From: a virus
Lineage: Duplodnaviria > Heunggongvirae > Uroviricota > Caudoviricetes
IMG/VR virus record: IMGVR_UViG_2711768042_000001
Coordinates: 1-24,687 of that record
Strand: one strand, 5' to 3'
Length of the DNA: 24,687 nt
The notes under the pieces are model-generated. The model saw only the letters and a program-made list of their open reading frames with translations, was not told the origin of the DNA and searched no databases. A program made the translations under genes and the position numbers. Shown in pieces: positions 1,169 to 23,782 of this stretch (positions within the stretch are counted from its first letter, which is position 1; every line of letters starts with the position of its first letter).

Positions 1169-1843
1169 TTGAATACTGCCGCCAACTATGGCGGCTTTAT
1201 TTTGCATGATACTATTACCACAACGGTAACTATTACCACGGTGGTTATGATGCCTGCTGAACCTAAAGCCTATAAACGCAAATCAACGCAATTTAAGCCA
1301 CTAACAGCAATGCAGGAGGCTTATTGCCAGTCATACATCAAAACGCCTGAAAACCAGACTCAGGCAGCGATTAATGCAGGATTCTCCCCAAATACAGCGG
1401 CAGTTAAAGCCAGTGTCATGATGCGCGATGAACGCATTCAAAAACGGATTGCCGAGTTGATGGAGGAGCGCAACAAACGAATGCGCGTCAGTGCTGATTA
1501 CGTTCTCATGCGCCTGGTGGAGATCGACCAGATGGACGTGATCGACATCCTCAACGACGATGGGAGCCTTAAGCCAATCCGCGAGTGGCCGAAAATCTGG
1601 CGCACTACGCTTAGCGGCTTTGATCTGTCATCGACCATCATGAACATGAACGAGGATTCGATAGAGACAATCCTCAAAAAAATTAAATGGCCTGACAAGG
1701 TGAAGAACCTCGAACTGATTGGTAAGCACGTCGACGTCAACGCATTCAAAGAACGCCTGGATGTTAATGTGAATGTGACAATTGCTGATCGCATAGCAGC
1801 AGCCAGGAAGCGACTCAAAGAACGTCAGGATGGTAATCAGTGA
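1169..1843 (+). CDS. terminase small subunit (Terminase_2/P27-like)
   Basis: Sits immediately upstream of the large terminase with overlapping stop/start; region AMQEAYCQSYIKTPENQTQAAINAGFSPNTAAVKASVMMRDERIQKRIAEL resembles small-terminase DNA-binding domains. True start may be ATG 1247 (MMPAEPK). Confidence 0.6.
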   Translation: MNTAANYGGFILHDTITTTVTITTVVMMPAEPKAYKRKSTQFKPLTAMQEAYCQSYIKTPENQTQAAINAGFSPNTAAVKASVMMRDERIQKRIAELMEERNKRMRVSADYVLMRLVEIDQMDVIDILNDDGSLKPIREWPKIWRTTLSGFDLSSTIMNMNEDSIETILKKIKWPDKVKNLELIGKHVDVNAFKERLDVNVNVTIADRIAAARKRLKERQDGNQ

Positions 1844-4023: not shown

Positions 4024-4100
4024 TGGCGTGGCATGCAGGATTCGAACCTGCGACCAACCGCTTAGAAGGCGGTTGCTCTGTCCAACTGAGCTAATGCCAC
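4024..4100 (-). tRNA. tRNA-Arg (anticodon UCU, decodes AGA), phage-encoded
   Basis: Reverse complement folds as a canonical cloverleaf: acceptor GTGGCAT/ATGCCAC, D-arm GCTC-AGTTGGACA-GAGC, anticodon arm ACCGC-CTTCTAA-GCGGT (anticodon TCT), T-arm GCAGG-TTCGAATC-CTGC, discriminator G and encoded CCA. Differs from E. coli argU as I recall it (from memory, not a comparison). Confidence 0.9.
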
Positions 4101-4422: not shown

Positions 4423-4437
4423 TTACCTGAAAGGTAA
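4423..4437. promoter_or_regulatory. palindromic motif TTACC-TGAAA-GGTAA (candidate operator), site 1 of 6
   Basis: Exact string; same motif class recurs at 20015, 20601, 22348 (imperfect), 23388, 23768, always intergenic. Confidence 0.4.
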
Positions 4438-13714: not shown

Positions 13715-16422
13715 TGCCAGTCGTACCAACAGTATCCGGACGTCAGGTGCAAAGTCGTGGTGTGCAAACCGGTGGTTTTCAGACCTTCGATGTTCCTCAA
13801 GCAGGTCAGGTGCTGGCGAATGTCGCAGATCAGTATGCGGTGGCATATGGTGAAGCCAGGCAGAAAGCGAATGTTGCATTGTCTCAGGATGCCATCCTTC
13901 AGCTTAATCAGCGCAGCAATGAACGTCTTTATAACCCTCAAACCGGTTTTTATGCACAACAAGGCAAAAATGCGATTGGTAAGGGGCAAGAGTACATATC
14001 TGGATTTGATCAGGATGTGGAAGAAATAGCTGCTTCATTGACTGATGAAGCAGCAAGAAATATGTTTTTGCAACAAGCCAGAACACAGAAAATTCAGTTC
14101 AGTACTGGAGTTCTCAGACATGAGATAGGGCAGACAAATGCCTATGAAGATGAGCAATATCAGGCAACGAGAAAATTATGGATACAAAATGAAGCGGATG
14201 CCTGGAATGACCCGCAAACTGCCACTTTAGCCAGAAATTCCAGAATGGTAGCCATTGCTAGATATGGAGCTGCCAGGGGATGGTCACAAGAACGCATTCT
14301 GGAAGAAATAGAAAGTGATGATCGCCGTGCCACAGAAATGCGGGCGAAGAATTATGCCGCTGCCAATCCAGAAGGATGGCTAAATGGTCTGTTTCAGAAA
14401 AATGATTCTGGAGGCATGGACATGCGTGCCATACGCCTTGTTGAATCAGGTGATCGACATTTTAATCCTGATGGTAGTCTTCTTGAAGGACCGATAACAT
14501 CTTCTGGAGAGAGAGCCCAGGGGAAATACCAGTTAATGCCGGGCACAGGGAAAGAACTGGCGGCCAAGCGTGGCGTTAAATACAACCCTACGGACGAACA
14601 ACAGCATGAAATGCTCGCCAGTGACTATGTAAATCAACTGTATGGTAAGTACGGCTCCGAAATATTGACCGGAGCAGCATATAACTGGGGGATGGGTAAC
14701 GTGGATAAACTGATCGCCAAAGTCGGTGATCCACGTAAAGGTGAAATATCAGAAGAAGAATTTATCCGAAATCTTCCATCAGAAACACAAGGGTGGCTTT
14801 CCCGATATAGAAAAAATAAAACTGGAATGGATCCGCTGACTATTTATCAAATAGATAACCTTGCTAATAGTCAGATAGAAAAGCAAAGGAAGTTAATATT
14901 AGAACAGCTTGAGCCAGCTATTAATAACACCATGGCCCAGCTATATAACGGTGAGGTTCCAGATTATATACCGGCTCAGGAGACCATCATCAGGGGGTAT
15001 GGAAAAAACGCAGATAAAATAATCAATCAACTGGATATAGCGATTGATAACGCGAGAATATTCCAGGCAATTCAGTATTTGCCTCCTTCTCAGCAGCAAG
15101 AAGAAATGCAGAAAGTGAAGCCTGAGGTTAACGATCCTCACTATGCGTTAAAACTCGATGCTTACGGAAAATTGTCTGCATTGCTTCAGAGATCAAATGA
15201 AGCAATTCAGGCGCAACGGGATTCACGCAGATTTAATGAGGCGCTGACAATAGGTGAAAAATTAGACCCAAGCAACAAGTCAATGCAGAAAGCTGCTGAT
15301 TACACAGAAATGGCGCAGAACTTTCGTATTAATGATGCCTCCACTCATGATGGGGTTGTTCGGCTTGTGGCTCAGACTGGCATAATGCCTTCGCAGGTCA
15401 TCACGCAGCTTTCAGCAGTATCCCGATCCAGCAATCAGGAAGTGGTTAAAAATGCGGCGGAACTGTTTAGTCGGTTATATGAAACAGACAATGCATCTAT
15501 TGGAAATATGCCGAAGGATATGCAGGGTTTTTATCTGACTGTTAAGCAACTAACTGATGCAGGGATGTCTTCTGATGCTGCTATTGTGGAAGCGCAGAGT
15601 AAGACATACAACCAGACAGATGCACTAAGGGCGCAGCTCTCATCTGTTCAGAGTACAAGAGAATACAAAAAAGAGCGTGACAGCGCAGCCAATTCTGCTG
15701 TCAGCAATATGGCTCATTGGCTTCGCTGGGATCCGTCTGCGGATGACCAGACGCCGGAAGCAGCGCTCTTTCGCAATGACTATCAGATGCTGTATGACGT
15801 TAACTATCGCCTTGCTGGTGGTAACGCTGACGTAGCGAAGCAAATGACCAACCAGCAGATAGCCCGCACCTGGAGTATCAGCGAGGTCAACGGGGAAGCA
15901 CAGTTTATGAAATATGCACCGGAGGCGCTTTATCAATATGGGCCGTCAGGTTGGATTGCAGCGCAATGGAAGGCTGAAAAAGAAAAAATCATGTATGGCG
16001 ATGACTTACATAAACCGGCTCCTTCATTTAACCGACCTTCAACTGAGGCTGGTGCATTGGGACTGAATAAGCCACGCTCACTGGTTGGAGGTGAGTTGAT
16101 TCTCGTTCCTGACTTATCAACTCCGAGAGATAAGCTTTATTCAGTTGTGATCAGAACAAAAGATAAAAATGGTATTACGAGGGATGATTTATTTTATGAC
16201 AAGCATGGAAGACAGATGCGCTGGGGGCCATCACTAGAAGATTGGGAACCTTATAAGAAAATGCAGCAGGAACGGGAGCAGCACGAGCAGGAAGAAATTA
16301 TGCGTGGACAGGCTATACGAAACTTCAAAGACAAGCATCGCGCTCTGGATGAGCAGTATCAGCGCCTGCATAACGAACGTATGGACAAATTTAAAGATTA
16401 CTTTTCGTGGGGATCTAAATAA
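13714..16422 (+). CDS. internal virion (ejection) protein with soluble lytic transglycosylase domain
   Basis: ATG 13714 with GGAGG upstream (track ORF begins earlier at 13639, overlapping the previous gene). SLT motif block: RLVESGDRHFNPDGS...GKYQLMPGTGKELAAKRG...AAYNWGMGNV (catalytic E-S motif, QLMP, AYNxG). Confidence 0.8.
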   Translation: MPVVPTVSGRQVQSRGVQTGGFQTFDVPQAGQVLANVADQYAVAYGEARQKANVALSQDAILQLNQRSNERLYNPQTGFYAQQGKNAIGKGQEYISGFDQDVEEIAASLTDEAARNMFLQQARTQKIQFSTGVLRHEIGQTNAYEDEQYQATRKLWIQNEADAWNDPQTATLARNSRMVAIARYGAARGWSQERILEEIESDDRRATEMRAKNYAAANPEGWLNGLFQKNDSGGMDMRAIRLVESGDRHFNPDGSLLEGPITSSGERAQGKYQLMPGTGKELAAKRGVKYNPTDEQQHEMLASDYVNQLYGKYGSEILTGAAYNWGMGNVDKLIAKVGDPRKGEISEEEFIRNLPSETQGWLSRYRKNKTGMDPLTIYQIDNLANSQIEKQRKLILEQLEPAINNTMAQLYNGEVPDYIPAQETIIRGYGKNADKIINQLDIAIDNARIFQAIQYLPPSQQQEEMQKVKPEVNDPHYALKLDAYGKLSALLQRSNEAIQAQRDSRRFNEALTIGEKLDPSNKSMQKAADYTEMAQNFRINDASTHDGVVRLVAQTGIMPSQVITQLSAVSRSSNQEVVKNAAELFSRLYETDNASIGNMPKDMQGFYLTVKQLTDAGMSSDAAIVEAQSKTYNQTDALRAQLSSVQSTREYKKERDSAANSAVSNMAHWLRWDPSADDQTPEAALFRNDYQMLYDVNYRLAGGNADVAKQMTNQQIARTWSISEVNGEAQFMKYAPEALYQYGPSGWIAAQWKAEKEKIMYGDDLHKPAPSFNRPSTEAGALGLNKPRSLVGGELILVPDLSTPRDKLYSVVIRTKDKNGITRDDLFYDKHGRQMRWGPSLEDWEPYKKMQQEREQHEQEEIMRGQAIRNFKDKHRALDEQYQRLHNERMDKFKDYFSWGSK

Positions 16423-19400
16423 TGCCGTTCTATCCTGTATCTGAATCAAACAATAACGGATTTATTTCTGCTGGTCTCGCCATTCCTGAACCTGATGAAC
16501 AGAGTTTTGATGTGCATCCGCCAGAAGGTAAGAACCCTGAACCTCGTCCCAAAGAGCCTTCATTGCTTGCCGCAGCAATACGACAGAACAATATTCTGGC
16601 TGGTTTTTTCCGTCCTGCCAGACAGTTTGAACCGGTCGAGGGTTATAACCCATATGCTGATAAAAATGAGTTGCACGGTTATGAATACTGGGGGGCGAAA
16701 TTTGCAGATTCCCGATCGCCAGAGGAAACGGCGTGGATTAAGCAGCAGATAGATGATGAAAATGAAGATCGGCGTTTTATCTCTGAAGCAGGCTTAGCTG
16801 GTGGAATTGCCAGTGCAACAGCGATGCTTTTTGACCCGGTTACTGTTGCGTCAATGTTTATCCCAGGTGCTCAAGGAGGGGCACTGGCGCGTATTGGCTC
16901 ACAGATTGCGATTGGTGCTGCCGGTACTGCATTAAGCGAGGTTGTACTGAATAATCAGCAAATAACACGCTCATGGGGTGAAAGTGCCGCTCACGTTGCA
17001 GCGGGTGCGATGATGAGCGGCGTGTTTGCCAGTGCTGGTGTTGCGCTTTCGCCATCCGTCCGGGCTGCAGCCACACGTGAGGTTGCTGATGCTCTTGATA
17101 ATATGAGCATTACATCAGCGACTGACAGGGCTGCCGCTTCGCTTTCCGATGGTGGTAGTGTTGGTGCTATGAAAATTGATACAGCGACTCTGGATGATTT
17201 AACCCCTGTTTCCGGTGGGTGGGTTGGAAAGGCTGCATGGAAAGCAGGGAGCTATCTTACTCCTTTGACAAGGTTAATGGAGTCTCCGTCCAAGACGGTG
17301 CGAAAAACAACGCTGGAGTTAGCCGAAAATAATTTCACCCTTAAAGGAAATGAAAGGGGGATTGAAACACCGGTAGCTGTAGAAACCCGTACACGTGGAT
17401 GGCAGCGTGAAGAAGCTGCTGTTGTTGTCGGAAATAAACAGGCATACGCAAAGTATAAAGCTGATGGTGGTGACATGAGTTTTGATTCATTTCGTCAGCA
17501 GGTTGGGAATGCTATGCGAAGCGGTGATGTGCATGCTAATCCTGTTGTTCAGGAAACGGCGCAGGCGATGCGAACTGTATTAAATCGGGTGAAAGTTGAA
17601 ATGCAAAAGCTTGGTTTATTGCCGCCAGATGAAGAACTGAAAGCATTAGGCCAGGCAAGCTATTTCCCACGCATATATAAAGTTGGAAAAATAATCAGTG
17701 AACGCGATAAATTTCGACGTATTTTGGTTGACTGGTGGTCGAGAGGAAATAAAACACTGGATCCTGAGGATGCTGAAATTGCAGCGGATATCGTAATTAA
17801 TAAAATTACTGGTGCTAAGGTTCCACAGGATTTTGTCAGCGTATTTTCTGTAAAAGCCGCAGGTAGTACGAAAGAAAGAACATTAAATGTTCCTGATAGT
17901 CTTATCAGGGATTATCTTGAAAGTGATGTGAATTACGTGCTGCAACGTCATATCCGTGAAGCGGCAGCAGAGATTGAGTTGACGAGAACATTTGGCAAAC
18001 GAACTATGACTGAGCGTCTGCAATTAATTGAGGACGAATATGACAGTCTGTTACGGGAAGTGCCTGAAAAAATAAAGGCGAAATATGACGAAAGTGTGGC
18101 AAATCTGAAAGCACGTTATGAGAGCAATGGTGAAGTTGTTCCTCAGGGTAAACTCGATTCATTAATGCGAAAGTACGAAAAGGAATTACGGAAAGAACAG
18201 TCCAGACTTTCAAAATCAAGAGCAAATGATCTCAGAGACATAACAGCATTACGCGATCGTCTTGTTGGTACATATGGTATGCCTGATGATCCGTCTTCGT
18301 TTTTTGTTCGTGCTGGCGCTTTTCTGCGGGATGTGAACTTCACGACCAAACTCGGTGGAATGACAGTATCAGCTATTCCAGATCTGGCCAGAGGGGTTAT
18401 GGTTAATGGTTTCCGTAACACCATGAAAGGCTATGCTTCTCAGATATCCCAATCACCGGCATTTAAGGCCAGCAAAGAAGAGATGTTGAAGATGGGGATT
18501 GGATTGGAAACTGTACTACATTCACGTTCTCGTGCAATTGGTGATCTTGTTGACAGTTCTTCCAGGACAACAGCAGTCGAAGCAGGAATGGAGCGAATTA
18601 CTGATGCCTTCGGCAAGCTGACACTCATGGATCGATTTAATGACATAAACAAATCCATGAACGGAATGCTCACGTCAGACGGTATTTTGTCTGGTGCGTT
18701 TTCTGCACGTCGCATGGCAAAACTCGGTATCAACGACAATATGGCGGCGCGTATTCGCAGTGAGTTCGAGAAACATGGTGAGGTAATTGATGGATGGCAC
18801 ATTGGTAACTTTGATAAATGGGACGATCAGTACGTTGCCGGAGTATTCCAGTCAGCGGTTCTGAAAGACGTTAATAACACTATCATCACCCCCGGTATTG
18901 GTGACACACCTTTATGGGCGAGTACTCCAATGGGGCGAACGATATTTCAGTTTAAATCATTCACAACGGCTTCATACAACCGTGCGCTACTTGGTGGGTT
19001 ACAGGAAGGAACTGCGCAATTTTATTATGGCACTGCATTTCAGATTGCTCTTGGCTCACTGGTCTATGCGCTAAAAGAAGCATCGAAAGGGAAAAATGTT
19101 GACTGGTCACCAGAGAAGCTGGTGCTTGAGGGTATAGATAGATCCGGTATTCTTGGGCCATTGATGGAATATAACAACATGGCTGAAAAGGCTACTGGTG
19201 GTGCTGTTGGGCTGGGGGCTTTATTTGGCACTGGCACACAGTCTAGGTATGCCAGTCGTGGATTCGTAGGATCTCTATTCGGACCGTCATTTGGTCTTGC
19301 GGATAGCATCATTGATGTGACCGCAGGAGTGTTGAATGGTGATGCCGGTGATCGTATTGTGCATAATGTCCGAACCCTGATACCAGGCAATAACCTGTTC

Positions 19401-19445
19401 TGGATTGCGCCACTAATAAACCAAGTGGATCCGGTGATGCGTTAA
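16422..19445 (+). CDS. large internal virion/DNA-injection protein (gp16 position)
   Basis: 1007 aa, ATG overlaps upstream stop (TAATG); last gene of the + strand structural block before the accessory locus. Confidence 0.6.
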   Translation: MPFYPVSESNNNGFISAGLAIPEPDEQSFDVHPPEGKNPEPRPKEPSLLAAAIRQNNILAGFFRPARQFEPVEGYNPYADKNELHGYEYWGAKFADSRSPEETAWIKQQIDDENEDRRFISEAGLAGGIASATAMLFDPVTVASMFIPGAQGGALARIGSQIAIGAAGTALSEVVLNNQQITRSWGESAAHVAAGAMMSGVFASAGVALSPSVRAAATREVADALDNMSITSATDRAAASLSDGGSVGAMKIDTATLDDLTPVSGGWVGKAAWKAGSYLTPLTRLMESPSKTVRKTTLELAENNFTLKGNERGIETPVAVETRTRGWQREEAAVVVGNKQAYAKYKADGGDMSFDSFRQQVGNAMRSGDVHANPVVQETAQAMRTVLNRVKVEMQKLGLLPPDEELKALGQASYFPRIYKVGKIISERDKFRRILVDWWSRGNKTLDPEDAEIAADIVINKITGAKVPQDFVSVFSVKAAGSTKERTLNVPDSLIRDYLESDVNYVLQRHIREAAAEIELTRTFGKRTMTERLQLIEDEYDSLLREVPEKIKAKYDESVANLKARYESNGEVVPQGKLDSLMRKYEKELRKEQSRLSKSRANDLRDITALRDRLVGTYGMPDDPSSFFVRAGAFLRDVNFTTKLGGMTVSAIPDLARGVMVNGFRNTMKGYASQISQSPAFKASKEEMLKMGIGLETVLHSRSRAIGDLVDSSSRTTAVEAGMERITDAFGKLTLMDRFNDINKSMNGMLTSDGILSGAFSARRMAKLGINDNMAARIRSEFEKHGEVIDGWHIGNFDKWDDQYVAGVFQSAVLKDVNNTIITPGIGDTPLWASTPMGRTIFQFKSFTTASYNRALLGGLQEGTAQFYYGTAFQIALGSLVYALKEASKGKNVDWSPEKLVLEGIDRSGILGPLMEYNNMAEKATGGAVGLGALFGTGTQSRYASRGFVGSLFGPSFGLADSIIDVTAGVLNGDAGDRIVHNVRTLIPGNNLFWIAPLINQVDPVMR

Positions 19446-19466
19446 TCAATATTTATTGGAGTTCTT

Positions 19467-19994
19467 TCAATGGCTGTTTATGGCTTCTAAAGAAGCTTCT
19501 GCACTTATCGGCAAAGCAATAGTATCCTTGTTAGATGTGCTATTGCTTTCCAGAACTATGGAAATCCAATCCTCTTGGTTTTCATTAATTGTGCTGACAG
19601 CCATGATAGCATTCAAATCATTTTTATATATTTCTGATCGAATAAGACCTTTCCTGAATAATTTAGTTAAGTTTTCAGCTATCGACATCGCACGAATGCT
19701 AACTTTACTAAGCTCAATTGCGTCACTACCTGCGACTTTGGCGTGTTGAGAAAGAGCCATCAAAGCTATATGTGAAAATGTTTCTTCTTTTGAAAAACCG
19801 TTACTTAAAGACATGAGTGATACACCAGCTCCGTATGGAGTGAGTTTATATCCTGATACATTCAGTGCATGCTCTACAAAGGTAAGATCATCAGTTGTAG
19901 AAACATGCATATCGTTACTTTTTTGTTTTTTTGCAATAAATAAAAAAACAAAATTAATAATCACGATGCCGACGATGATTAAGAAAACTTCCAT
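19467..19994 (-). CDS. membrane-anchored accessory protein (single N-terminal TM); superinfection-exclusion candidate by position
   Basis: ATG 19994 with GAGG 7 nt upstream; N-terminus EVFLIIVGIVIINFVFLFIA is one TM helix; AT-rich; sits directly after the injection gene on the opposite strand, where P22 carries sieA. Confidence 0.6.
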   Translation of the reverse strand: MEVFLIIVGIVIINFVFLFIAKKQKSNDMHVSTTDDLTFVEHALNVSGYKLTPYGAGVSLMSLSNGFSKEETFSHIALMALSQHAKVAGSDAIELSKVSIRAMSIAENLTKLFRKGLIRSEIYKNDLNAIMAVSTINENQEDWISIVLESNSTSNKDTIALPISAEASLEAINSH

Positions 19995-20014
19995 TGCTTT
20001 TCCTCACAATAACA

Positions 20015-20029
20015 TTACCTTAAAGGTAA
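20015..20029. promoter_or_regulatory. palindromic motif TTACC-TTAAA-GGTAA, site 2 of 6
   Basis: Exact string 20-35 nt upstream of the 19994 start on the minus strand. Confidence 0.4.
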
Positions 20030-20054
20030 TATTTTGTGCTAATGTGATCAAGTG

Positions 20055-20453
20055 TTAAGTGTATACCTCCTGTTGCTCAGTGGTGATTTTACCCGGCAAC
20101 ACCTTTTTAGCTTTGTGCGGGTTAACCACATGGCCTTTAGTCCAGTACTCGTAGAGCACATCGTCACACTCTTCCTGATACTGGATTACCTTGTCGCGGA
20201 TTTCAGGGCGGACTTTGTTAGGGCTGATGCTGTTCAACCAAGCTGCCAATTTTCGTAAAGCCATACAAATCATGGCTTGCACCCCACCGGCAGAAGGTAT
20301 GGTGATTTCCACCATACCCTTCGAGAAGCGTTGAGAAATCTTCTTATGTTGAGATTTCCAGTCTAGCCCCATTCCCTCAACGATAGGTTTCATTGGGGTA
20401 TACGGTTCGCCGTTGTGATTGACAACATAAAGCTCTGCGCCGTGGAATGGCAC
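20055..20453 (-). CDS. antirepressor N-terminal-domain-like protein (P22_AR_N-like), possibly truncated
   Basis: N-terminus FHGAELYVVNHNGEPYTPMKPIVEGMGLDWKSQ...VIQYQEECDDVLYEYWTKG has the style of P22-antirepressor N-domains (from memory). Starts with GTG, no clear SD, only 132 aa, so may be a remnant. Confidence 0.45.
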   Translation of the reverse strand: MPFHGAELYVVNHNGEPYTPMKPIVEGMGLDWKSQHKKISQRFSKGMVEITIPSAGGVQAMICMALRKLAAWLNSISPNKVRPEIRDKVIQYQEECDDVLYEYWTKGHVVNPHKAKKVLPGKITTEQQEVYT

Positions 20454-20590
20454 GTTGATAGTAGTGACAAATTTGAAACATCGCTGGTTGTAAGCCAGCA
20501 GATGCTCGTTATTTTACGTCGCGGCACAATTTCTCGCTGCTGGCTCTTTTACACACATTAACCAAATATGGTTGATTTTAATATTTATAC

Positions 20591-20886
20591 GCGCTTATCA
20601 TTACCTTTGCGGTAAATTTACATTGCATTCCTCTTGTGCCATAGTAATCGGGCACTGGCAAAATCCAGTGTCGGGATTGGTCTCCCGGATTACTAAGTGG
20701 CGCATACCACGCCAGACGTGGTTTTTTTATGCGTATAGCACAGTCATGCCAGAATTATGGTGGGCTGAATGGGGGTCCGAAAGGACGCCGGTACCACTTA
20801 GGCCGGTAAGACCAACTCCGTTCAGTTCACCACCATCTGATTGGTCTCAGCGGTGGTGATGTAATTCGCTAAGTGGAGACGCCATC
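20591..20886 (+). promoter_or_regulatory. structured ~295-nt leader upstream of the AntA-like gene (copy 1 of an inverted pair)
   Basis: About 85-90 percent identical to the reverse complement of 23122-23412; contains TTACC-TTTGC-GGTAA (20601-20615), two stem-loops, an intrinsic terminator, then complementary sites AGACCAA (20809-20815) and TTGGTCT (20841-20847) before the RBS GGAG. Confidence 0.7.
20651..20727 (+). ncRNA. candidate C4-like antisense sRNA, copy 1 (SL1 CACUGG-CAAAAU-CCAGUG; SL2 CGGGA-UUGGUC-UCCCG; terminator CCACG-CCAGA-CGUGG then U7)
   Basis: Three consecutive hairpins ending in a U-run, about 77 nt; SL2 loop UUGGUCU is complementary to AGACCAA in the downstream leader. 5' end not determined. 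Confidence 0.45.
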
Positions 20887-21543
20887 ATGAACGCTCAACT
20901 CATCCCCGTATTCAACGGCACTATATCTAACGAAACAGCCCTACTTTGTAATGCCCGCGATCTGCACGCTTTTTTAGGTGTTAAAAAGGTGTTTGCAGCA
21001 TGGATTACAAATCGCATTTCAGAATACGAATTCATTGAAAATCAAGACTATATTTTGCTTTCCAATTTGGGAAAGCAAACATCTGGTAGAGGCGGCCACA
21101 ACCGCAAAGAGTACCACCTCACCCTTGATACAGCCAAAGAGCTGGCGATGGTCGAGCGTAACGAAAAAGGTCGCCAGATACGACGCTACTTCATTGAATG
21201 CGAGAAACGTTTAAGACAACAAGAAACAAAGGTGGAGAAGGTCTTGTCAGGCTTCATGCCAGCCATTATGGAGGCGATCAAGCTGGAAGACAAAAAAGAA
21301 TACAGCGCCCAACTGAAGCCCGGCTACCGCAGCCTGATTCATTCGCCGTCTGGTGTTCTCGGCCTGACGGAGAACTCACTGCTGATGAATTTGCTGAACC
21401 AGTTACAGGAAGACGGGCATGATGTATCGGGCGCGGCAGCGGAGCTGACCACCATGTTCTGCTACATCGTCGGTGTGAGCAAATGCCTGCGTGATATCCA
21501 GACGCACGCGGAGTACATCAACGACAAGGCAGGGTTCTTCTGA
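20887..21543 (+). CDS. antirepressor, AntA-type N-domain plus shared C-terminal domain
   Basis: ATG with GGAG 8 nt upstream; N-domain ...[16 protein letters not shown]...[30 protein letters not shown] matches the AntA pattern; the C-terminal 80 aa are near-identical to the C-terminus of the 22435..23121 gene. Confidence 0.75.
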
Positions 21544-21568
21544 CGAGCGGCGGCACAGGGATGTGCAA
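21301..21568. repeat. inverted repeat arm A (antirepressor C-domain coding plus 25 bp of 3' flank)
   Basis: About 94 percent identical to the reverse complement of 22410-22677. Confidence 0.8.
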
Positions 21569-21678: not shown

Positions 21679-22218
21679 TTACCAAAACTTGTACCACGGG
21701 GATTTATCCTTCAATGGACAATCCTTCCATCGTGTGGCCAACCATTCATATTCTTTAAAATATGTGTTTATGTTTTCTTTTTCTCTAATAGCTTGTATAA
21801 GAGGTAGCGCAATCTGATAGTTATTTACAACGGAGCTGTAAAATACTTCCTTAATCATGGTCTCATCATAAGTTTTCCGCTTCACGCTCACAGCCATGCG
21901 TTCGTAGAAACCTAGACAGTAAATTATTTCTCTCTTCTCTATCTTTTCTTCATCCGTAAGATCAGCCTGCCCATTGCTTGGATACATATAAGAGCGGAAT
22001 GATTTGTTCGATTCGTGAATGCGGCGCATAGTAGATAGGCCTTTCTTATAATCTACATCAAACCTGCTTTCACCAAGGAATACTGAAGTGTGTACTTTTC
22101 TCGCTGTATTTACATTATAAATAATAGTAGCGATAGCTATGAACAAGCCAAGCGAAACCGCGACTGCACTTACGATTTGAGCCACAGCCATGGCAAATTG
22201 CATTTCTTCACTTAACAC
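21679..22218 (-). CDS. membrane-anchored accessory protein (N-terminal TM helix), unknown function; exclusion/abortive-infection candidate
   Basis: GTG 22218 with GGAGA 6 nt upstream (alternative ATG at 22203); TM segment FAMAVAQIVSAVAVSLGLFIAIATIIY; own terminator; AT-rich; lies between the two convergent antirepressor cassettes. Confidence 0.6.
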   Translation of the reverse strand: MLSEEMQFAMAVAQIVSAVAVSLGLFIAIATIIYNVNTARKVHTSVFLGESRFDVDYKKGLSTMRRIHESNKSFRSYMYPSNGQADLTDEEKIEKREIIYCLGFYERMAVSVKRKTYDETMIKEVFYSSVVNNYQIALPLIQAIREKENINTYFKEYEWLATRWKDCPLKDKSPWYKFW

Positions 22219-22347: not shown

Positions 22348-22362
22348 TCACCCGTAAGGTAA
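22348..22362. promoter_or_regulatory. imperfect palindromic motif TCACC-CGTAA-GGTAA, site 4 of 6
   Basis: One half-site mismatch relative to TTACC-N5-GGTAA; intergenic, about 140 nt upstream of the 22218 start. Confidence 0.3.
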
Positions 22363-22409: not shown

Positions 22410-22677
22410 AGGCACATCCCTGTGCCGCCGCCCGTCAGAAGACCCCTGCCTTGTCGTTGATGTATTCCGCGTGGGTCTGGATATCACGCAGGCATTTACT
22501 CACACCGACGATGTAGCAGAACATGGTGGTCAGTTCCGCCGCCGCGCCCGATACGTCGTGCCCGTCTTCCTGTAACTGGTTCAGCAGATTCATCAGCAGT
22601 GAGTTCTCCGTCAGGCCGAGAACACCAGACGGCGAATGAATCAGGCTGCGGTAGCCGAGCTTCAGTGGGGCGCTGTA
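22410..22677. repeat. inverted repeat arm B (antirepressor C-domain coding plus 3' flank)
   Basis: Reverse complement about 94 percent identical to 21301-21568. Confidence 0.8.
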
Positions 22678-23121
22678 GGTTTTGTTCTCTACCTTCATTG
22701 CCTGCATCACTGCTGATGCTGTGGCGCTGGCTACCTGGTCGGCAACCATCTTTATGCGTTCTTCCTGCGGGAGCGAGTTTTTAATGTAACTTCCGGTGCG
22801 GCGGATCTGAGGAAGAACCTCACCTGTAACCCATTTACGAAAGCGGTAGGGGGTAGTGCCTGGTGTCACCGCATCGCGGCAGCGGAGGATCAGTGTGTAG
22901 AGGCCTGACTCGTTGATAATATTGGTTTCGCCTTGACGGCCTAAGTTAAATTTAGCCCTTTCATCATCATCAAGAGATTTTATTGACATAGTGGGGTTTG
23001 TCAGTTGAAGAGCTTTAATAACGTCTTTGGCAACAAACCAAGGATTTCCATCAATAACAATGGCTCGAATGGTTGCTTCTGATTCAAAATGAAAAACAGA
23101 TGGGGTTACGTTAGCAGTCAT
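22435..23121 (-). CDS. antirepressor, Bro-N-type N-domain plus shared C-terminal domain
   Basis: ATG 23121 with AGGTGAT upstream (track ORF extends to 23274 but that N-terminal extension overlaps the conserved leader). Bro-N pattern: IDGNPWFVAKDVIKAL...NESGLYTLILRCR...YRFRKWVTGEVLPQIRRTGSY. Confidence 0.75.
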   Translation of the reverse strand: MTANVTPSVFHFESEATIRAIVIDGNPWFVAKDVIKALQLTNPTMSIKSLDDDERAKFNLGRQGETNIINESGLYTLILRCRDAVTPGTTPYRFRKWVTGEVLPQIRRTGSYIKNSLPQEERIKMVADQVASATASAVMQAMKVENKTYSAPLKLGYRSLIHSPSGVLGLTENSLLMNLLNQLQEDGHDVSGAAAELTTMFCYIVGVSKCLRDIQTHAEYINDKAGVF

Positions 23122-23274
23122 AGCGATCACCTTTGTAGTTAGGTTAATCACCACTACCGACGCCAATCGGTTGGTGGTGAACTGTGCAGGGTTGGCGTAA
23201 CCGGCTACAAAGGACCCGGCGCACCTTTCGGTGCCCCCACACAGCCCACCATAGAATAGGTGCGCTTTACACAT

Positions 23275-23352
23275 AAAAAAACCGCTTATGCGGCATATGT
23301 GCCTCTGTAGTAACTCGGGACGCCAATCCCGGCACTGGATTTTGCCAGTGCC
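23275..23352 (-). ncRNA. candidate C4-like antisense sRNA, copy 2 (SL2 loop UUGGCG; terminator CCGC-AUAA-GCGG then U7)
   Basis: Same three-hairpin architecture as copy 1; loop UUGGCGU is complementary to ACGCCAA (plus 23192-23198, read on minus) in its own leader. Confidence 0.45.
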
Positions 23353-23387: not shown

Positions 23388-23402
23388 TTACCGCAAAGGT
23401 AA
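23388..23402. promoter_or_regulatory. palindromic motif TTACC-GCAAA-GGTAA, site 5 of 6
   Basis: Exact string at the upstream end of leader copy 2, mirroring 20601-20615 in copy 1. Confidence 0.4.
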
Positions 23403-23433: not shown

Positions 23434-23691
23434 TTATCTGGTTTGTTTTCGTAATTGTTCGGCACAATAGTCGAGATGTGTTTGCAGATCCTGCATAGAC
23501 ATCTGTGAGCTGGTGACGTAGTTAATCAGTGCAGTCAGTTCGGCAAGTGGGCCATCGACATTAAATCCATCCTTATCGAGATCCCGGAGTAATTTCATCA
23601 AGTGCGATCCCTCCACCAGTGACCTGACGCCTCCCGGCGTGTGAATCCTTTCGGTAAATCCGTCTTCCAGTGGATAGTGATACTGCTGCAT
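23434..23691 (-). CDS. small protein (about 85 aa) homologous to the antirepressor C-terminal domain only
   Basis: ATG 23691 with GGAG 6 nt upstream (track start 23814 is probably too long because it would cover the LexA box and operator motifs). YHYPLEDGFTERIHTPGGVRSLVEGSHLMKLLRDLDKDGFNVDGPLAELT aligns with [50 protein letters not shown]. Confidence 0.55.
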   Translation of the reverse strand: MQQYHYPLEDGFTERIHTPGGVRSLVEGSHLMKLLRDLDKDGFNVDGPLAELTALINYVTSSQMSMQDLQTHLDYCAEQLRKQTR

Positions 23692-23710: not shown

Positions 23711-23730
23711 AACTGTATATTTATACAGTA
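23711..23730. promoter_or_regulatory. LexA (SOS) box: AACTGTATATTTATACAGTA
   Basis: CTGT-N8-ACAG with an AT-rich spacer, 18 of 20 matches to the E. coli consensus TACTGTATATATATACAGTA; 20-40 nt upstream of the 23691 start on the minus strand. Confidence 0.6.
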
Positions 23731-23767: not shown

Positions 23768-23782
23768 TTACCTGAAAGGTAA
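23768..23782. promoter_or_regulatory. palindromic motif TTACC-TGAAA-GGTAA, site 6 of 6
   Basis: Exact string, identical core to site 1 (4423-4437). Confidence 0.4.

What the first reader, a model, noticed from the sequence alone, without database searches (positions are those of the whole stretch)
19467..19994. Membrane-anchored protein at the sieA-equivalent position
175 aa with N-terminal TM helix (EVFLIIVGIVIINFVFLFIA), strong SD, AT-rich, encoded antisense to the virion operon immediately after the last injection gene. In P22 this slot holds sieA, an inner-membrane protein that blocks DNA entry of superinfecting phage. A TTACC-N5-GGTAA palindrome sits in its 5' region.
Basis: inference. 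Interest (0 to 1): 0.6.

Follow-up and report, generated by a model that had tools for sequence, protein, structure and literature searches.

The report
Repressor-controlled membrane protein gene, not SieA
A real prophage accessory gene sits where phage P22 keeps its exclusion gene sieA, but it is unrelated to SieA, belongs to an uncharacterised family, and carries the prophage repressor's operator on its promoter, so it is probably switched on only when repression is lifted.

Summary
A 175-aa ORF (19467-19994, minus strand) has one N-terminal TM helix and a GAGGA Shine-Dalgarno. It is 35% GC against 48% for the window and ends 21 nt after the stop of the last injection gene.

The SieA reading is only positional.
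- There is no similarity to P22 SieA (hhalign probability 0.2%). SieA has three TM helices; this protein has one.
- The protein matches phrog_21690, which has no known function.
- Its roughly 145-residue all-helical domain is predicted to be cytoplasmic. It defines a family of 124 representative clusters with no Pfam, PADLOC, PDB or BFVD match.

The palindrome is the key clue. TTACC-N5-GGTAA occurs six times perfectly in the window, always between genes. In a near-identical E. coli prophage it occurs three times between the cI-like repressor gene and cro. I therefore read it as the main repressor's operator.

Here the operator abuts the predicted -10, 19 nt before the ATG. The gene is the divergent partner of an isrK-C4-antirepressor operon, the layout of phage P1 simABC | Oc4 | c4-icd-ant.

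It is thus probably repressed in stable lysogens, unlike sieA. TM-anchored homologues lie beside antirepressor modules in three other phage-like contexts, two of them clear prophages. Function is unproven; membrane-level phage-phage conflict is my best guess.

The parts
19467..19994 (-). 175-aa ORF of family phrog_21690, identical or nearly identical to RefSeq WP_000451652.1. Stop codon at 19467-19469.
   Evidence: ORF listing. Full-length phrog_21690 match, E = 7.5e-104. Annotated as a hypothetical protein in 6 E. coli genomes. dN/dS = 0.24 against the L013 allele.
19932..19988 (-). Codons for residues 3-21, the single N-terminal TM helix. It follows ME and precedes KKQK, which predicts N-out / C-in topology.
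   Evidence: Kyte-Doolittle 19-residue maximum 3.18, with no other segment above 1.6. AF2 helix 2-20. Homologues keep the short N-tail, TM helix and polybasic stretch.
19470..19910 (-). Codons for residues 29-175: a globular, mostly helical domain predicted to be cytoplasmic. It has 8 helices and a small two-strand sheet.
   Evidence: AF2 with a 106-sequence alignment gives pLDDT 89.7 and pTM 0.83. The family profile finds 124 representative clusters. No Pfam, PADLOC, PDB or BFVD match.
20001..20005 (-). Shine-Dalgarno GAGGA, 6 nt upstream of the ATG.
   Evidence: Read from the sequence. Conserved in all copies of the module.
20014..20030 (.). Perfect 17-bp palindrome ATTACCTT-A-AAGGTAAT, inferred to be an operator of the prophage's main repressor. 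It lies 19 nt upstream of the ATG.
   Evidence: 6 perfect copies of TTACC-N5-GGTAA in the window. Three copies between the cI-like gene and cro, and two to the left of cI, in the sister prophage L007. Retained upstream of the gene in L003 and L013.
20031..20058 (-). Promoter-like site TTAACA-16 nt-CAAAAT (9 of 12 matches). Its -10 directly abuts the operator.
   Evidence: Consensus scan. On its own the match is weak: 5 sites found against 4.3 expected. It aligns with the -35/-10/operator layout of the two antirepressor promoters.
19982..20058 (-). 77-nt module comprising promoter, operator, Shine-Dalgarno and the first four codons (MEVF). The same module drives a different TM-anchored gene in sister prophages.
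   Evidence: 91% identical to L001 16791-16867 and L013 3241-3317. There it precedes the 242-aa WP_001550142.1 (phrog_6762), which has the anchor MEVFWIVVGVV and a Cys-rich C-terminus.
19446..20058 (-). The whole AT-rich cassette, bounded by the stop of the injection gene and by the break in homology with MS 196-1.
   Evidence: Homology with prophages that carry another occupant stops at 19441. Homology with L003 stops at 20058. GC is 34.4% over 19446-20067.
16422..19445 (+). The 1007-aa last internal-virion/injection protein, convergent with the ORF.
   Evidence: phrog_342 'internal virion protein', E = 3.5e-208. 96% identical to the phage TL-2011b injection genes.
20055..20453 (-). Truncated antirepressor with only the P22_AR_N domain. 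The non-homologous stretch 20059-20556 that contains it separates the two halves of a divergent promoter pair.
   Evidence: Pfam P22_AR_N, E = 1.3e-44. PGAP calls it a pseudogene missing its C-terminus. In L003 the two promoter halves are adjacent.
20572..20837 (+). The divergent partner control region. It holds promoter TTGATT-18 nt-TATCAT, the operator at 20600-20616, a second promoter-like site at 20617-20645, isrK at 20652-20728 and C4 antisense RNA at 20753-20837.
   Evidence: Promoter scan. Operator matches. Rfam isrK at 65.5 bits and C4 at 61.2 bits, both above gathering score.
20887..21543 (+). AntA-type antirepressor gene of the partner operon.
   Evidence: Pfam AntA, E = 3.9e-26; phrog_377 anti-repressor Ant.

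Best explanation
The locus is a self-contained accessory cassette (a 'moron') in a temperate E. coli podovirus of the TL-2011b / epsilon15 type.

It encodes a single-pass inner-membrane protein. Two residues are predicted to face the periplasm, followed by one TM helix and a polybasic stretch. A roughly 145-residue all-helical domain is then held at the cytoplasmic face. That domain belongs to an uncharacterised family (phrog_21690) with no recognisable fold relative.

The gene is not a SieA homologue. It is the divergent partner of a P1-type immI operon (isrK, C4 RNA, antirepressor). Both back-to-back promoters have the same design, with the -10 immediately followed by the 17-bp operator of the prophage's main repressor.

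I therefore infer that the gene is silent in the established lysogen. It would be switched on together with the early and antirepressor genes when repressor is absent or inactivated, that is on infection or after SOS / antirepressor induction.

My best guess at its job is phage-phage conflict at the cytoplasmic face of the inner membrane. It could interfere with DNA entry or early steps of a competing phage while repressor immunity is down. T4 Imm is a precedent for exclusion during lytic growth, and P1 sim is a precedent for the position.

Shown here: the gene, the anchor, the domain family, the operator distribution, the divergent-promoter layout, and the recurrence next to antirepressor modules.

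Inferred: the topology, binding of the repressor to the motif, the timing of expression, and the function.
For: Gene and protein:
- The ORF, anchor, Shine-Dalgarno and low GC are confirmed, and dN/dS is 0.24.
- AF2 gives pLDDT 89.7 with TM helix 2-20 and a globular helical domain.
- The domain also occurs without any TM segment, or fused behind an N-terminal domain that looks like a winged helix. One such member matches Pfam MarR at E = 2e-4. Together with the KKQK flank, this supports a cytoplasmic location.

Operator:
- The window has 6 perfect TTACC-N5-GGTAA sites, all intergenic.
- In the near-identical prophage of strain CE0007a the motif occurs three times between an HTH_3 repressor gene that lacks a peptidase domain and a cro-like gene. 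It occurs twice to the left of the repressor gene. It also lies before int, the nin region, terS and portal.
- Only 19 nt separate the operator from the ATG, so no promoter can lie downstream of it.
- The operator is retained in every copy of the cassette.
- The alternative slot occupant, the 187-aa phrog_8033 gene behind an Arc-family (Mnt-like) gene, has no operator.

Layout:
- In MS 196-1 the two promoters, each with its operator, are contiguous.
- The P1 record shows the same arrangement: simC-simB-simA, then the C1 operator Oc4, then c4-icd-ant.

Recurrence:
- P0015 (37-38% identity) lies in the same region of another epsilon15-like prophage. It is antisense to the injection genes, separated from the last one by a 98-aa gene, and sits beside an isrK/C4-like leader and an ORF6N antirepressor.
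- P0017 (32%) lies between the cI-like gene and the antirepressor operon.
- P0034 lies near an ORF6N antirepressor, one gene away.
- More distant members lie in AlpA/excisionase-type or ParA/resolvase-type elements.
Against: - There is no functional evidence of any kind. No match was found to any Sie, Abi or defence model (PHROGs, PADLOC).
- The promoter call is a weak consensus match, no better than chance for the region.
- Binding of the repressor to the motif is inferred from site distribution only. The window itself does not contain the immunity region.
- In P1, the immI operon also has a promoter that escapes C1 control. An operator therefore does not guarantee full silence.
- Homologue P0017 has only a half-site upstream and sits just after the repressor gene. 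This is a rex-like position that would suit expression in the lysogen.
- The 47%-identical relatives lie in the chromosome beside a TonB-dependent receptor gene, not clearly inside a phage.
- Most family members are soluble proteins. The domain may therefore have a generic binding role unrelated to DNA entry.
Confidence: 0.45

Rival explanations
1. The protein is a functional analogue of SieA. It is made constitutively by the prophage, sits in the inner membrane and blocks DNA translocation by superinfecting relatives by interfering with their ejection proteins.
For: - It occupies the same position and orientation as P22 sieA, next to the last ejection gene.
- It has a membrane anchor.
- It is a variable, AT-rich cassette.
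- P0015 lies in the same region of a distant epsilon15-like prophage.
- P0017 lies directly after the repressor gene with only a half operator, a position typical of lysogen-expressed exclusion genes such as rex.
Against: - No homology, and a different architecture: 1 TM helix against 3, and no FxRYPxEAxxFNK motif (PMC10883804).
- A perfect repressor operator overlaps the only possible promoter and leader.
- The domain is predicted to be cytoplasmic and is mostly found in soluble proteins.
Confidence: 0.17
2. The protein is an early lytic-cycle helper that acts on the host rather than on rival phages. The membrane-tethered domain would bind and modulate a host factor associated with the inner membrane, for example the division machinery, a protease or a transporter. 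Precedents are P1 Icd, lambda Kil and lambda CIII.
For: - It is co-regulated with early and antirepressor promoters through the same operator.
- P1 keeps icd in the equivalent immI operon.
- The conserved positions are mostly small or hydrophobic, with no invariant catalytic-looking set. This suggests a binding module.
Against: - The gene is dispensable and rare: 6 of about 190 related E. coli prophages carry it.
- It is exchangeable with unrelated membrane proteins in the same slot.
- Relatives occur outside phages.
Confidence: 0.2
3. The protein is a component of the immunity switch. The cytoplasmic domain would capture a soluble regulator (repressor, antirepressor or LexA-controlled inducer) at the membrane and so tune induction.
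For: - In the E. coli prophages and in three independent homologue lineages the TM-anchored gene lies beside or close to an antirepressor gene or operon.
- In other bacteria the same domain follows an N-terminal domain that looks like a winged helix, the usual layout of a one-component regulator with a partner- or ligand-binding C-terminal domain.
Against: - The association may only reflect that immI regions are recombination hot spots full of repeated promoter modules.
- Prophages with identical antirepressor modules do without the gene.
- No precedent is known to me.
Confidence: 0.1
4. The ORF is spurious or decaying and has no function.
For: It is AT-rich, lies next to a pseudogene, is rare, and has no annotated function.
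Against: - dN/dS is 0.24.
- The ORF is intact and identical or nearly identical to the window ORF (0-1 nucleotide differences) in six of the seven other copies examined. The seventh, L013, is the 93% allele.
- Homologues at 32-48% identity conserve a domain that folds confidently.
- The Shine-Dalgarno and regulatory module are conserved.
Confidence: 0.03

Closest known systems
P22 SieA (phrog_7745; Leavitt et al. 2024, PMC10883804)
   Same: A small inner-membrane protein gene on the antisense strand, about 21 nt after the last ejection-protein gene. It lies inside the antirepressor region that precedes the tailspike gene, and it is present in only some related prophages.
   Different: - No sequence or profile similarity.
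- SieA has three TM helices (four in types B and C) and the motif FxRYPxEAxxFNK. This protein has one anchor and a 145-residue soluble domain.
- sieA is expressed in the lysogen, whereas this gene carries a repressor operator on its promoter.
- The host phage is not P22-like.
Phage P1 sim (simA-simB-simC), beside the immI operon c4-icd-ant
   Same: The gene is transcribed divergently from a C4-RNA/antirepressor operon, with a main-repressor operator in the shared control region. The prophage uses many dispersed single operators, as P1 does with C1.
   Different: - No similarity to SimC or SimB.
- From my memory of the literature, not checked here, Sim is a processed exported protein. This protein has no signal peptide and is predicted to face the cytoplasm.
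- Here the operator covers the gene's own promoter. In the P1 record Oc4 lies upstream of the predicted PsimA.
Phage TL-2011b gp39 / WP_023352470.1 (187 aa, phrog_8033)
   Same: It occupies exactly the same slot in 96-99% identical injection modules, on the same strand, and has an N-terminal hydrophobic segment.
   Different: - Unrelated sequence.
- It lies downstream of an Arc-family (Mnt-like) gene in a P22-type mnt/arc/ant layout and has no TTACC-N5-GGTAA operator.
- It is more frequent: 36 genomes against 6.
WP_001550142.1 (242 aa, phrog_6762) of sister prophages
   Same: It shares the 77-nt promoter-operator-SD-MEVF module, has an N-terminal TM anchor, and is likewise divergent from an isrK-C4-ant operon.
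   Different: Its cytoplasmic part is unrelated. It is a low-complexity linker followed by Cys-rich repeats that resemble zinc ribbons and match endonuclease VII and Lar-like PHROGs.
Exclusion proteins made during lytic growth, such as T4 Imm (from my knowledge of the literature, not tested here)
   Same: Small proteins with an N-terminal membrane anchor, made early in infection rather than by a prophage, that stop DNA entry of secondary phages.
   Different: No sequence relationship was found with any PHROG annotated as superinfection exclusion. Imm is much smaller. Function here is unproven.

Membership tests
SieA (phrog_7745, types A/B/C) | Sequence or profile homology to SieA | tested here: not met
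   BLASTP gives only a 7-residue match, E = 0.21. hhalign of the 106-sequence profile against P22 SieA gives probability 0.2%. P22 SieA hits phrog_7745 and the target hits only phrog_21690.
SieA (phrog_7745, types A/B/C) | Integral membrane protein with three (type A) or four TM helices | tested here: not met
   A single hydrophobic segment at residues 3-21. AF2 shows one TM helix and a globular domain. The SieA topology comes from PMC10883804.
SieA (phrog_7745, types A/B/C) | Conserved cytoplasmic motif FxRYPxEAxxFNK | tested here: not met
   The motif is absent from the 175-aa sequence. The only resemblance is NGFSKE against NGFNKE, which is not significant.
SieA (phrog_7745, types A/B/C) | Located between the last ejection gene (gene 16 homologue) and the tailspike gene of a P22-like prophage | tested here: inconclusive
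   The position relative to the ejection gene and the tailspike gene is met. The prophage is of the TL-2011b / epsilon15 type, with T7 gp14-like core, Bbp16 cement and gp10 staple proteins. It is not P22-like.
SieA (phrog_7745, types A/B/C) | Expressed from the prophage in the lysogen | tested here: inconclusive
   Sequence only. A perfect copy of the presumed repressor operator lies between the predicted -10 and the Shine-Dalgarno. That argues against lysogen expression, but no expression data are available.
SieA (phrog_7745, types A/B/C) | Blocks DNA entry of superinfecting phage and is sufficient on its own | not testable with these tools
   Needs plating, potassium-efflux and DNA-uptake assays.
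phrog_21690 (unknown function) | Full-length match to the family HMM | tested here: met
   E = 7.5e-104 over positions 1-175 of 175. All 106 members of alignment A2 match it and no other PHROG.
Prophage 'moron' (independent accessory transcription unit) | Own promoter, deviating base composition, and presence/absence polymorphism among otherwise similar prophages | tested here: met
   A promoter-like site with operator and Shine-Dalgarno. GC 35% against 48%. Present in 6 of 192 genomes that share the injection-gene end. Homology breaks at 19441 and 20058. No terminator was found after the ORF.
P1 sim-type exclusion locus | Divergent from a C4-RNA/antirepressor immI operon, with a repressor operator between the two | tested here: met
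P1 sim-type exclusion locus | Homology to SimA, SimB or SimC | tested here: not met
   hhalign probability 0.2% for SimC and 0.1% for SimB. SimA (52 aa) was not compared.
Lambdoid CI/Cro-type operator | A palindrome of about 17 bp, repeated in tandem between divergent repressor and cro genes | tested here: met
   Sites at L007 18690, 18707 and 18738 lie between the HTH_3 repressor gene (18050-18634, minus strand) and the cro-like gene (18789-19019). Two more lie at 17916 and 17978. Binding itself was not tested.
Known anti-phage defence systems (PADLOC-DB v2) | Match to any defence-protein model | tested here: not met
   No hit for the target or for any of the 106 family members.

The most novel reading that the evidence does not exclude
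TL-2011b-type prophages carry a plug-in platform made of a repressor-controlled promoter, an operator, a Shine-Dalgarno and a MEVF-type TM anchor. It tethers interchangeable cytoplasmic domains to the inner face of the membrane. So far these are the new all-helical phrog_21690 domain and a Cys-rich domain that resembles a zinc ribbon.

These proteins would form a new, non-homologous class of exclusion or defence factor. It would be switched on exactly when repressor immunity collapses, at induction or on fresh infection, and would guard the DNA-entry site from the cytoplasmic side.
Probability: 0.2. Interest if true: 0.7.

Novelty: new variant of a known kind. Interest (0 to 1): 0.42.

Why it matters
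- If the protein excludes or aborts competing phages, it would be a new type of exclusion protein. It is structurally unrelated to SieA, Sim, Imm and Cor/Llp, and it would be timed to the window when repressor immunity is off.
- It would give a first function to a domain family of 124 representative clusters that has no Pfam entry and no fold relative.
- Independently of function, the work assigns a likely operator (TTACC-N5-GGTAA) to a common group of E. coli prophages.
- It also shows that these prophages combine a lambdoid cI/cro switch with P1-style dispersed operators and a P1-type C4/isrK antirepressor module. This makes their induction circuit directly testable.
- If the gene proves to be an ordinary accessory gene with no phenotype, the finding is only a correction. 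In that case a position like that of sieA does not make a gene sieA.

Tried and rejected
- SieA homology by BLASTP and by profile comparison: none. The NGFSKE/NGFNKE match inside the SieA motif region is chance.
- Homology to the alternative slot occupant gp39 / WP_023352470.1: none.
- Homology to P1 SimC and SimB: none.
- Pfam, NCBIfam and PADLOC for the protein: nothing significant. Pfam and PADLOC on all 106 family members gave only single chance partners, DUF6804 and MarR, in N-terminal regions.
- tblastn against 50,697 phage records: no match, so no sequenced isolated phage in that collection carries the gene.
- First AF2 run with 9 close sequences: pLDDT 51.8, unusable. It was repeated with 106 sequences.
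- The search for related loci with the broad alignments failed for lack of conserved stretches. A narrower alignment gave one genome locus and five viral contigs.
- The second word-indexed protein search with the profile added almost nothing.
- Literature searches for WP_000451652 and phrog_21690 found no papers. The P1 genome paper was not held, so I used the annotated P1 record instead.
- Signal-peptide or periplasmic reading: rejected. The N-region is acidic, the hydrophobic stretch is 19 residues, there is no AxA-type cleavage site, and KKQK follows.
- A CI-activated promoter like lambda PRM: rejected. An activating position would place the transcription start inside the ORF.
- Plus-strand ORF 19456..19749 (97 aa), which overlaps the gene: I judged it a by-product of the minus-strand gene. 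This rests on the strong evidence for the minus-strand ORF. I did not search the plus-strand ORF itself.
Full report
**1. The observation**

The ORF at 19467..19994 (minus strand, 175 aa, ATG) exists as described.
- Residues 2-21 are EVFLIIVGIVIINFVFLFIA. This is the only hydrophobic segment (Kyte-Doolittle 19-residue maximum 3.18 at residues 3-21).
- The segment is preceded by ME and followed by KKQK.
- A GAGGA Shine-Dalgarno lies 6 nt before the ATG.
- GC is 35% for the ORF against 48% for the window.
- The ORF converges on the 1007-aa last internal-virion/injection gene (16422..19445). The two stop codons are 21 nt apart.
- In the P22 record, sieA lies on the opposite strand 22 nt after gene 16, so the positional analogy is correct.
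- The palindrome is at 20015-20029 and extends to a perfect 17-bp palindrome, ATTACCTT-A-AAGGTAAT, at 20014-20030.

The gene is real.
- It is intact in all seven other copies examined. Six differ from the window ORF by 0-1 nucleotides. The 93% allele in L013 differs by 13 synonymous and 12 non-synonymous changes, giving dN/dS = 0.24.
- More distant homologues conserve a domain.

**2. The genome around it**

The window is the late half of a temperate E. coli podovirus.
- It encodes terminase, portal, capsid, T7 gp14-like core proteins, an SLT ejection protein and a tailspike.
- The closest isolated phage is Escherichia phage TL-2011b, whose injection genes are 96% identical up to window position 19441.
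- Near-identical prophages sit next to guaA in a few E. coli genomes.
- The region between the last injection gene and the tailspike gene is an immI-like block. It holds three antirepressor-type genes (P22_AR_N, AntA, Bro-N) and a DUF4760 membrane protein.
- Rfam finds isrK plus C4 antisense RNA in the leaders of two antirepressor operons. This is the phage P1 type of immI.
- A LexA box with 1 mismatch lies at 23711-23730. It precedes an 85-aa ORF that resembles the C-terminus of the Ant proteins.

**3. SieA membership**

P22 SieA (164 aa) shares nothing with the target.
- BLASTP gives only a 7-residue match, E = 0.21.
- hhalign of the 106-sequence family profile against SieA gives probability 0.2%.
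- SieA is phrog_7745. The target and all its relatives are phrog_21690, a family of unknown function.
- According to PMC10883804, SieA has three TM helices and a conserved motif FxRYPxEAxxFNK, is expressed from the prophage, and is found in P22-like prophages.
- The target has one TM helix, lacks the motif, and sits in a different phage type.

It is therefore not a SieA family member.

**4. The protein**

A word-indexed search found only 9 clusters. An exhaustive profile search found 124 representative clusters, 73 of them at E <= 1e-10.

The conserved part is residues about 30-160. It occurs in four settings:
- behind a single N-terminal TM helix, as here, often starting ME(V/I)F;
- behind two or more TM helices;
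- behind an N-terminal domain with a GHPDR motif that looks like a winged helix (one member matches Pfam MarR at E = 2e-4);
- alone, often starting MFGFFKKK.

With the deep alignment, AlphaFold2 gives pLDDT 89.7 and pTM 0.83. The model has a TM helix at 2-20, a flexible linker, and an eight-helix domain with a small two-strand sheet. The shallow alignment had given 51.8.

No relative was found by any method:
- Foldseek against PDB and BFVD, nothing at E <= 0.001;
- a profile search of PDB sequences;
- Pfam;
- PADLOC.

Conserved positions are mostly Gly, Ala and hydrophobic residues, plus E71, S74, D84 (His in the target), N125, D126, Q140 and W143. None is invariant. This looks more like a binding module than an enzyme.

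The positive-inside rule, and the existence of soluble and DNA-binding-domain fusions, both argue that the domain is cytoplasmic. This is an inference.

**5. The palindrome is the repressor's operator**

- TTACC-N5-GGTAA occurs perfectly at 1215, 4423, 20015, 20601, 23388 and 23768. Copies with one mismatch lie at 1233 and 22348.
- All of these sites lie between genes.
- In the sister prophage of strain CE0007a the motif occurs three times between a 194-aa repressor gene and a cro-like gene. That repressor has an HTH_3 domain and no peptidase domain.
- In the same prophage the motif occurs twice to the left of the repressor gene. It also lies before int, the nin region, terS and portal.

This is the signature of a main-repressor operator. 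It is dispersed over the genome, as C1 operators are in P1. Binding has not been shown, and the window itself lacks the immunity region.

**6. Architecture of the control region**

- Upstream of the target, on the minus strand, the order is TTAACA-16 nt-CAAAAT, then the operator, then 8 nt, GAGGA, 6 nt and ATG.
- The promoter match is weak on its own. However, it aligns with the two antirepressor promoters, which have the same layout of -10 followed by operator.
- Only 19 nt separate the operator from the ATG. Any transcript entering the gene must therefore start at or read through the operator.
- The 77 nt at 19982-20058 (promoter, operator, Shine-Dalgarno and four codons) recur at 91% identity in sister prophages. 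There they precede a different gene, the 242-aa WP_001550142.1. That protein has a similar MEVFW anchor and a Cys-rich C-terminus.
- In strain MS 196-1 the target's promoter and the isrK-C4-ant promoter lie back to back, each with its own operator.
- In the window, the stretch 20059-20556, which contains the truncated antirepressor (20055..20453), separates them.
- The annotated P1 record shows the same layout: simC-simB-simA, then the C1 operator Oc4, then c4-icd-ant.

The best positional analogue is therefore P1 sim as much as P22 sieA. There is no homology to SimC or SimB.

**7. The slot and the family in other genomes**

- The end of the injection gene is found in 192 of 5426 complete E. 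coli genomes. The cassette is in 6.
- In 36 genomes, and in phage TL-2011b, the slot instead holds a 187-aa protein with an N-terminal hydrophobic segment (phrog_8033). It lies behind an Arc-family (Mnt-like) gene next to arc and ant. That is the P22 layout, and it has no operator.
- A third allele is a 98-aa protein with two hydrophobic segments, co-oriented with the injection genes.

TM-anchored homologues of the target recur near antirepressor modules:
- P0015 (37-38% identity) lies in the same region of another epsilon15-like prophage. A 98-aa gene separates it from the last injection gene.
- P0017 (32%) lies between the cI-like gene and an isrK/C4-like leader with an ORF6N antirepressor. 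Only a half operator lies upstream of it.
- P0034 lies one gene away from an ORF6N antirepressor on a short contig.

Other members lie in an AlpA/excisionase-type island with a RES-Xre toxin-antitoxin pair, or in a ParA/resolvase-type element. The 47% relatives lie in the chromosome beside a TonB-dependent receptor gene. In one case they are also near P4-like sid/delta/psu genes.

**8. Interpretation**

Shown:
- a genuine, mobile, AT-rich cassette encoding a protein with an N-terminal anchor and a new helical domain;
- an operator of dispersed type on its promoter;
- a divergent pairing with a P1-type antirepressor operon;
- repeated association with antirepressor regions in two other temperate-phage genomes and one short contig.

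Inferred:
- N-out / C-in topology;
- repression in the stable lysogen, with expression on infection or induction;
- a role in phage-phage conflict at the cytoplasmic face of the membrane.

The main rival readings are a lysogen-expressed analogue of SieA, an early host-directed helper, and a membrane-tethered modulator of the antirepressor switch. None can be excluded without experiments.

**9. Verdict**

The SieA interpretation is only partly supported: position and membrane anchor hold, but homology, architecture and probably regulation do not.

The finding is moderately interesting. It is an uncharacterised protein family in a classical exclusion-gene position, and it comes with a clearly defined and testable regulatory circuit.

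Noticed in passing
window 1215-1229, 1233-1247, 4423-4437, 20015-20029, 20601-20615, 22348-22362, 23388-23402, 23768-23782; also L007 12894, 17916, 17978, 18690, 18707, 18738, 19075, 21021, 21083: TTACC-N5-GGTAA is dispersed across the whole prophage in intergenic regions, before int, early genes, terS, portal, the antirepressor genes and the target. It occurs three times between the cI-like gene and cro. This suggests that a single repressor silences most transcription units directly, as C1 does in P1.
   Followed up: yes
window 20652-20728 and 20753-20837 (+); 23275-23351 and 23170-23256 (-): Two inverted copies of an isrK sRNA plus C4 antisense RNA leader precede the AntA-type and Bro-N-type antirepressor genes. 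This is a duplicated P1-type immI module inside a podovirus with a lambdoid early region. The leaders form inverted repeats of 103 nt (91%) and 75 nt.
   Followed up: partly
window 23711-23730, upstream of ORF 23434..23691 (-): A near-consensus LexA box (AACTGTATATTTATACAGTA, 1 mismatch) precedes an 85-aa ORF (phrog_450) that resembles the C-terminus of the Ant proteins. It is probably an SOS-controlled small antirepressor. That would fit a main repressor that lacks a peptidase domain.
   Followed up: partly
window 21679-22218 (-), flanked by 21285-21566 and 22412-22693: A 179-aa DUF4760 protein (phrog_2284) with an N-terminal hydrophobic segment lies between two 282-nt inverted repeats (94% complementary). 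The repeats are the 3' ends of the two antirepressor genes. The segment could invert or be exchanged by recombination. An operator copy with one mismatch lies at 22348.
   Followed up: no
L001 16855-17583 (also L013 2525-3253): A 242-aa protein (WP_001550142.1, phrog_6762) uses the same promoter-operator-SD-MEVF module and TM anchor as the target. It carries Cys-rich repeats that resemble zinc ribbons and match endonuclease VII and Lar-like families. This suggests a shared 'anchor platform' with exchangeable cytoplasmic domains.
   Followed up: partly
L002 6158-6721 and L019 3354-3917 (phage TL-2011b gp39); L029 5165-5461; L020 8606-8902: Other occupants of the slot after the last injection gene are a 187-aa protein with an N-terminal hydrophobic segment (phrog_8033, behind an mnt-like gene, 36 E. 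coli genomes) and a 98-aa protein with two hydrophobic segments that is co-oriented with the injection genes and conserved across genera. Both are uncharacterised.
   Followed up: partly
window 20055-20453 (-): An antirepressor fragment with only the P22_AR_N domain, 97% identical to the start of the ant gene of phage CUS-3. The stretch that contains it (20059-20556) separates the two halves of a divergent promoter pair that are contiguous in E. coli MS 196-1.
   Followed up: yes
window 4024-4100 (-): A tRNA-Arg (anticodon TCT) gene lies between the terminase and portal genes, near an operator copy at 4423.
   Followed up: no
L021 7118-7187, 8611-8625, 9677-9834; L020 6892-6906: Related AT-rich prophages from other genera use a similar but distinct operator, about TAACCA-N3-TGGTTA. 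It again lies between the cI-like gene and cro, at the antirepressor promoter, and before the early-left operon. Repressor specificity therefore seems to have drifted while the dispersed-operator design was kept.
   Followed up: partly
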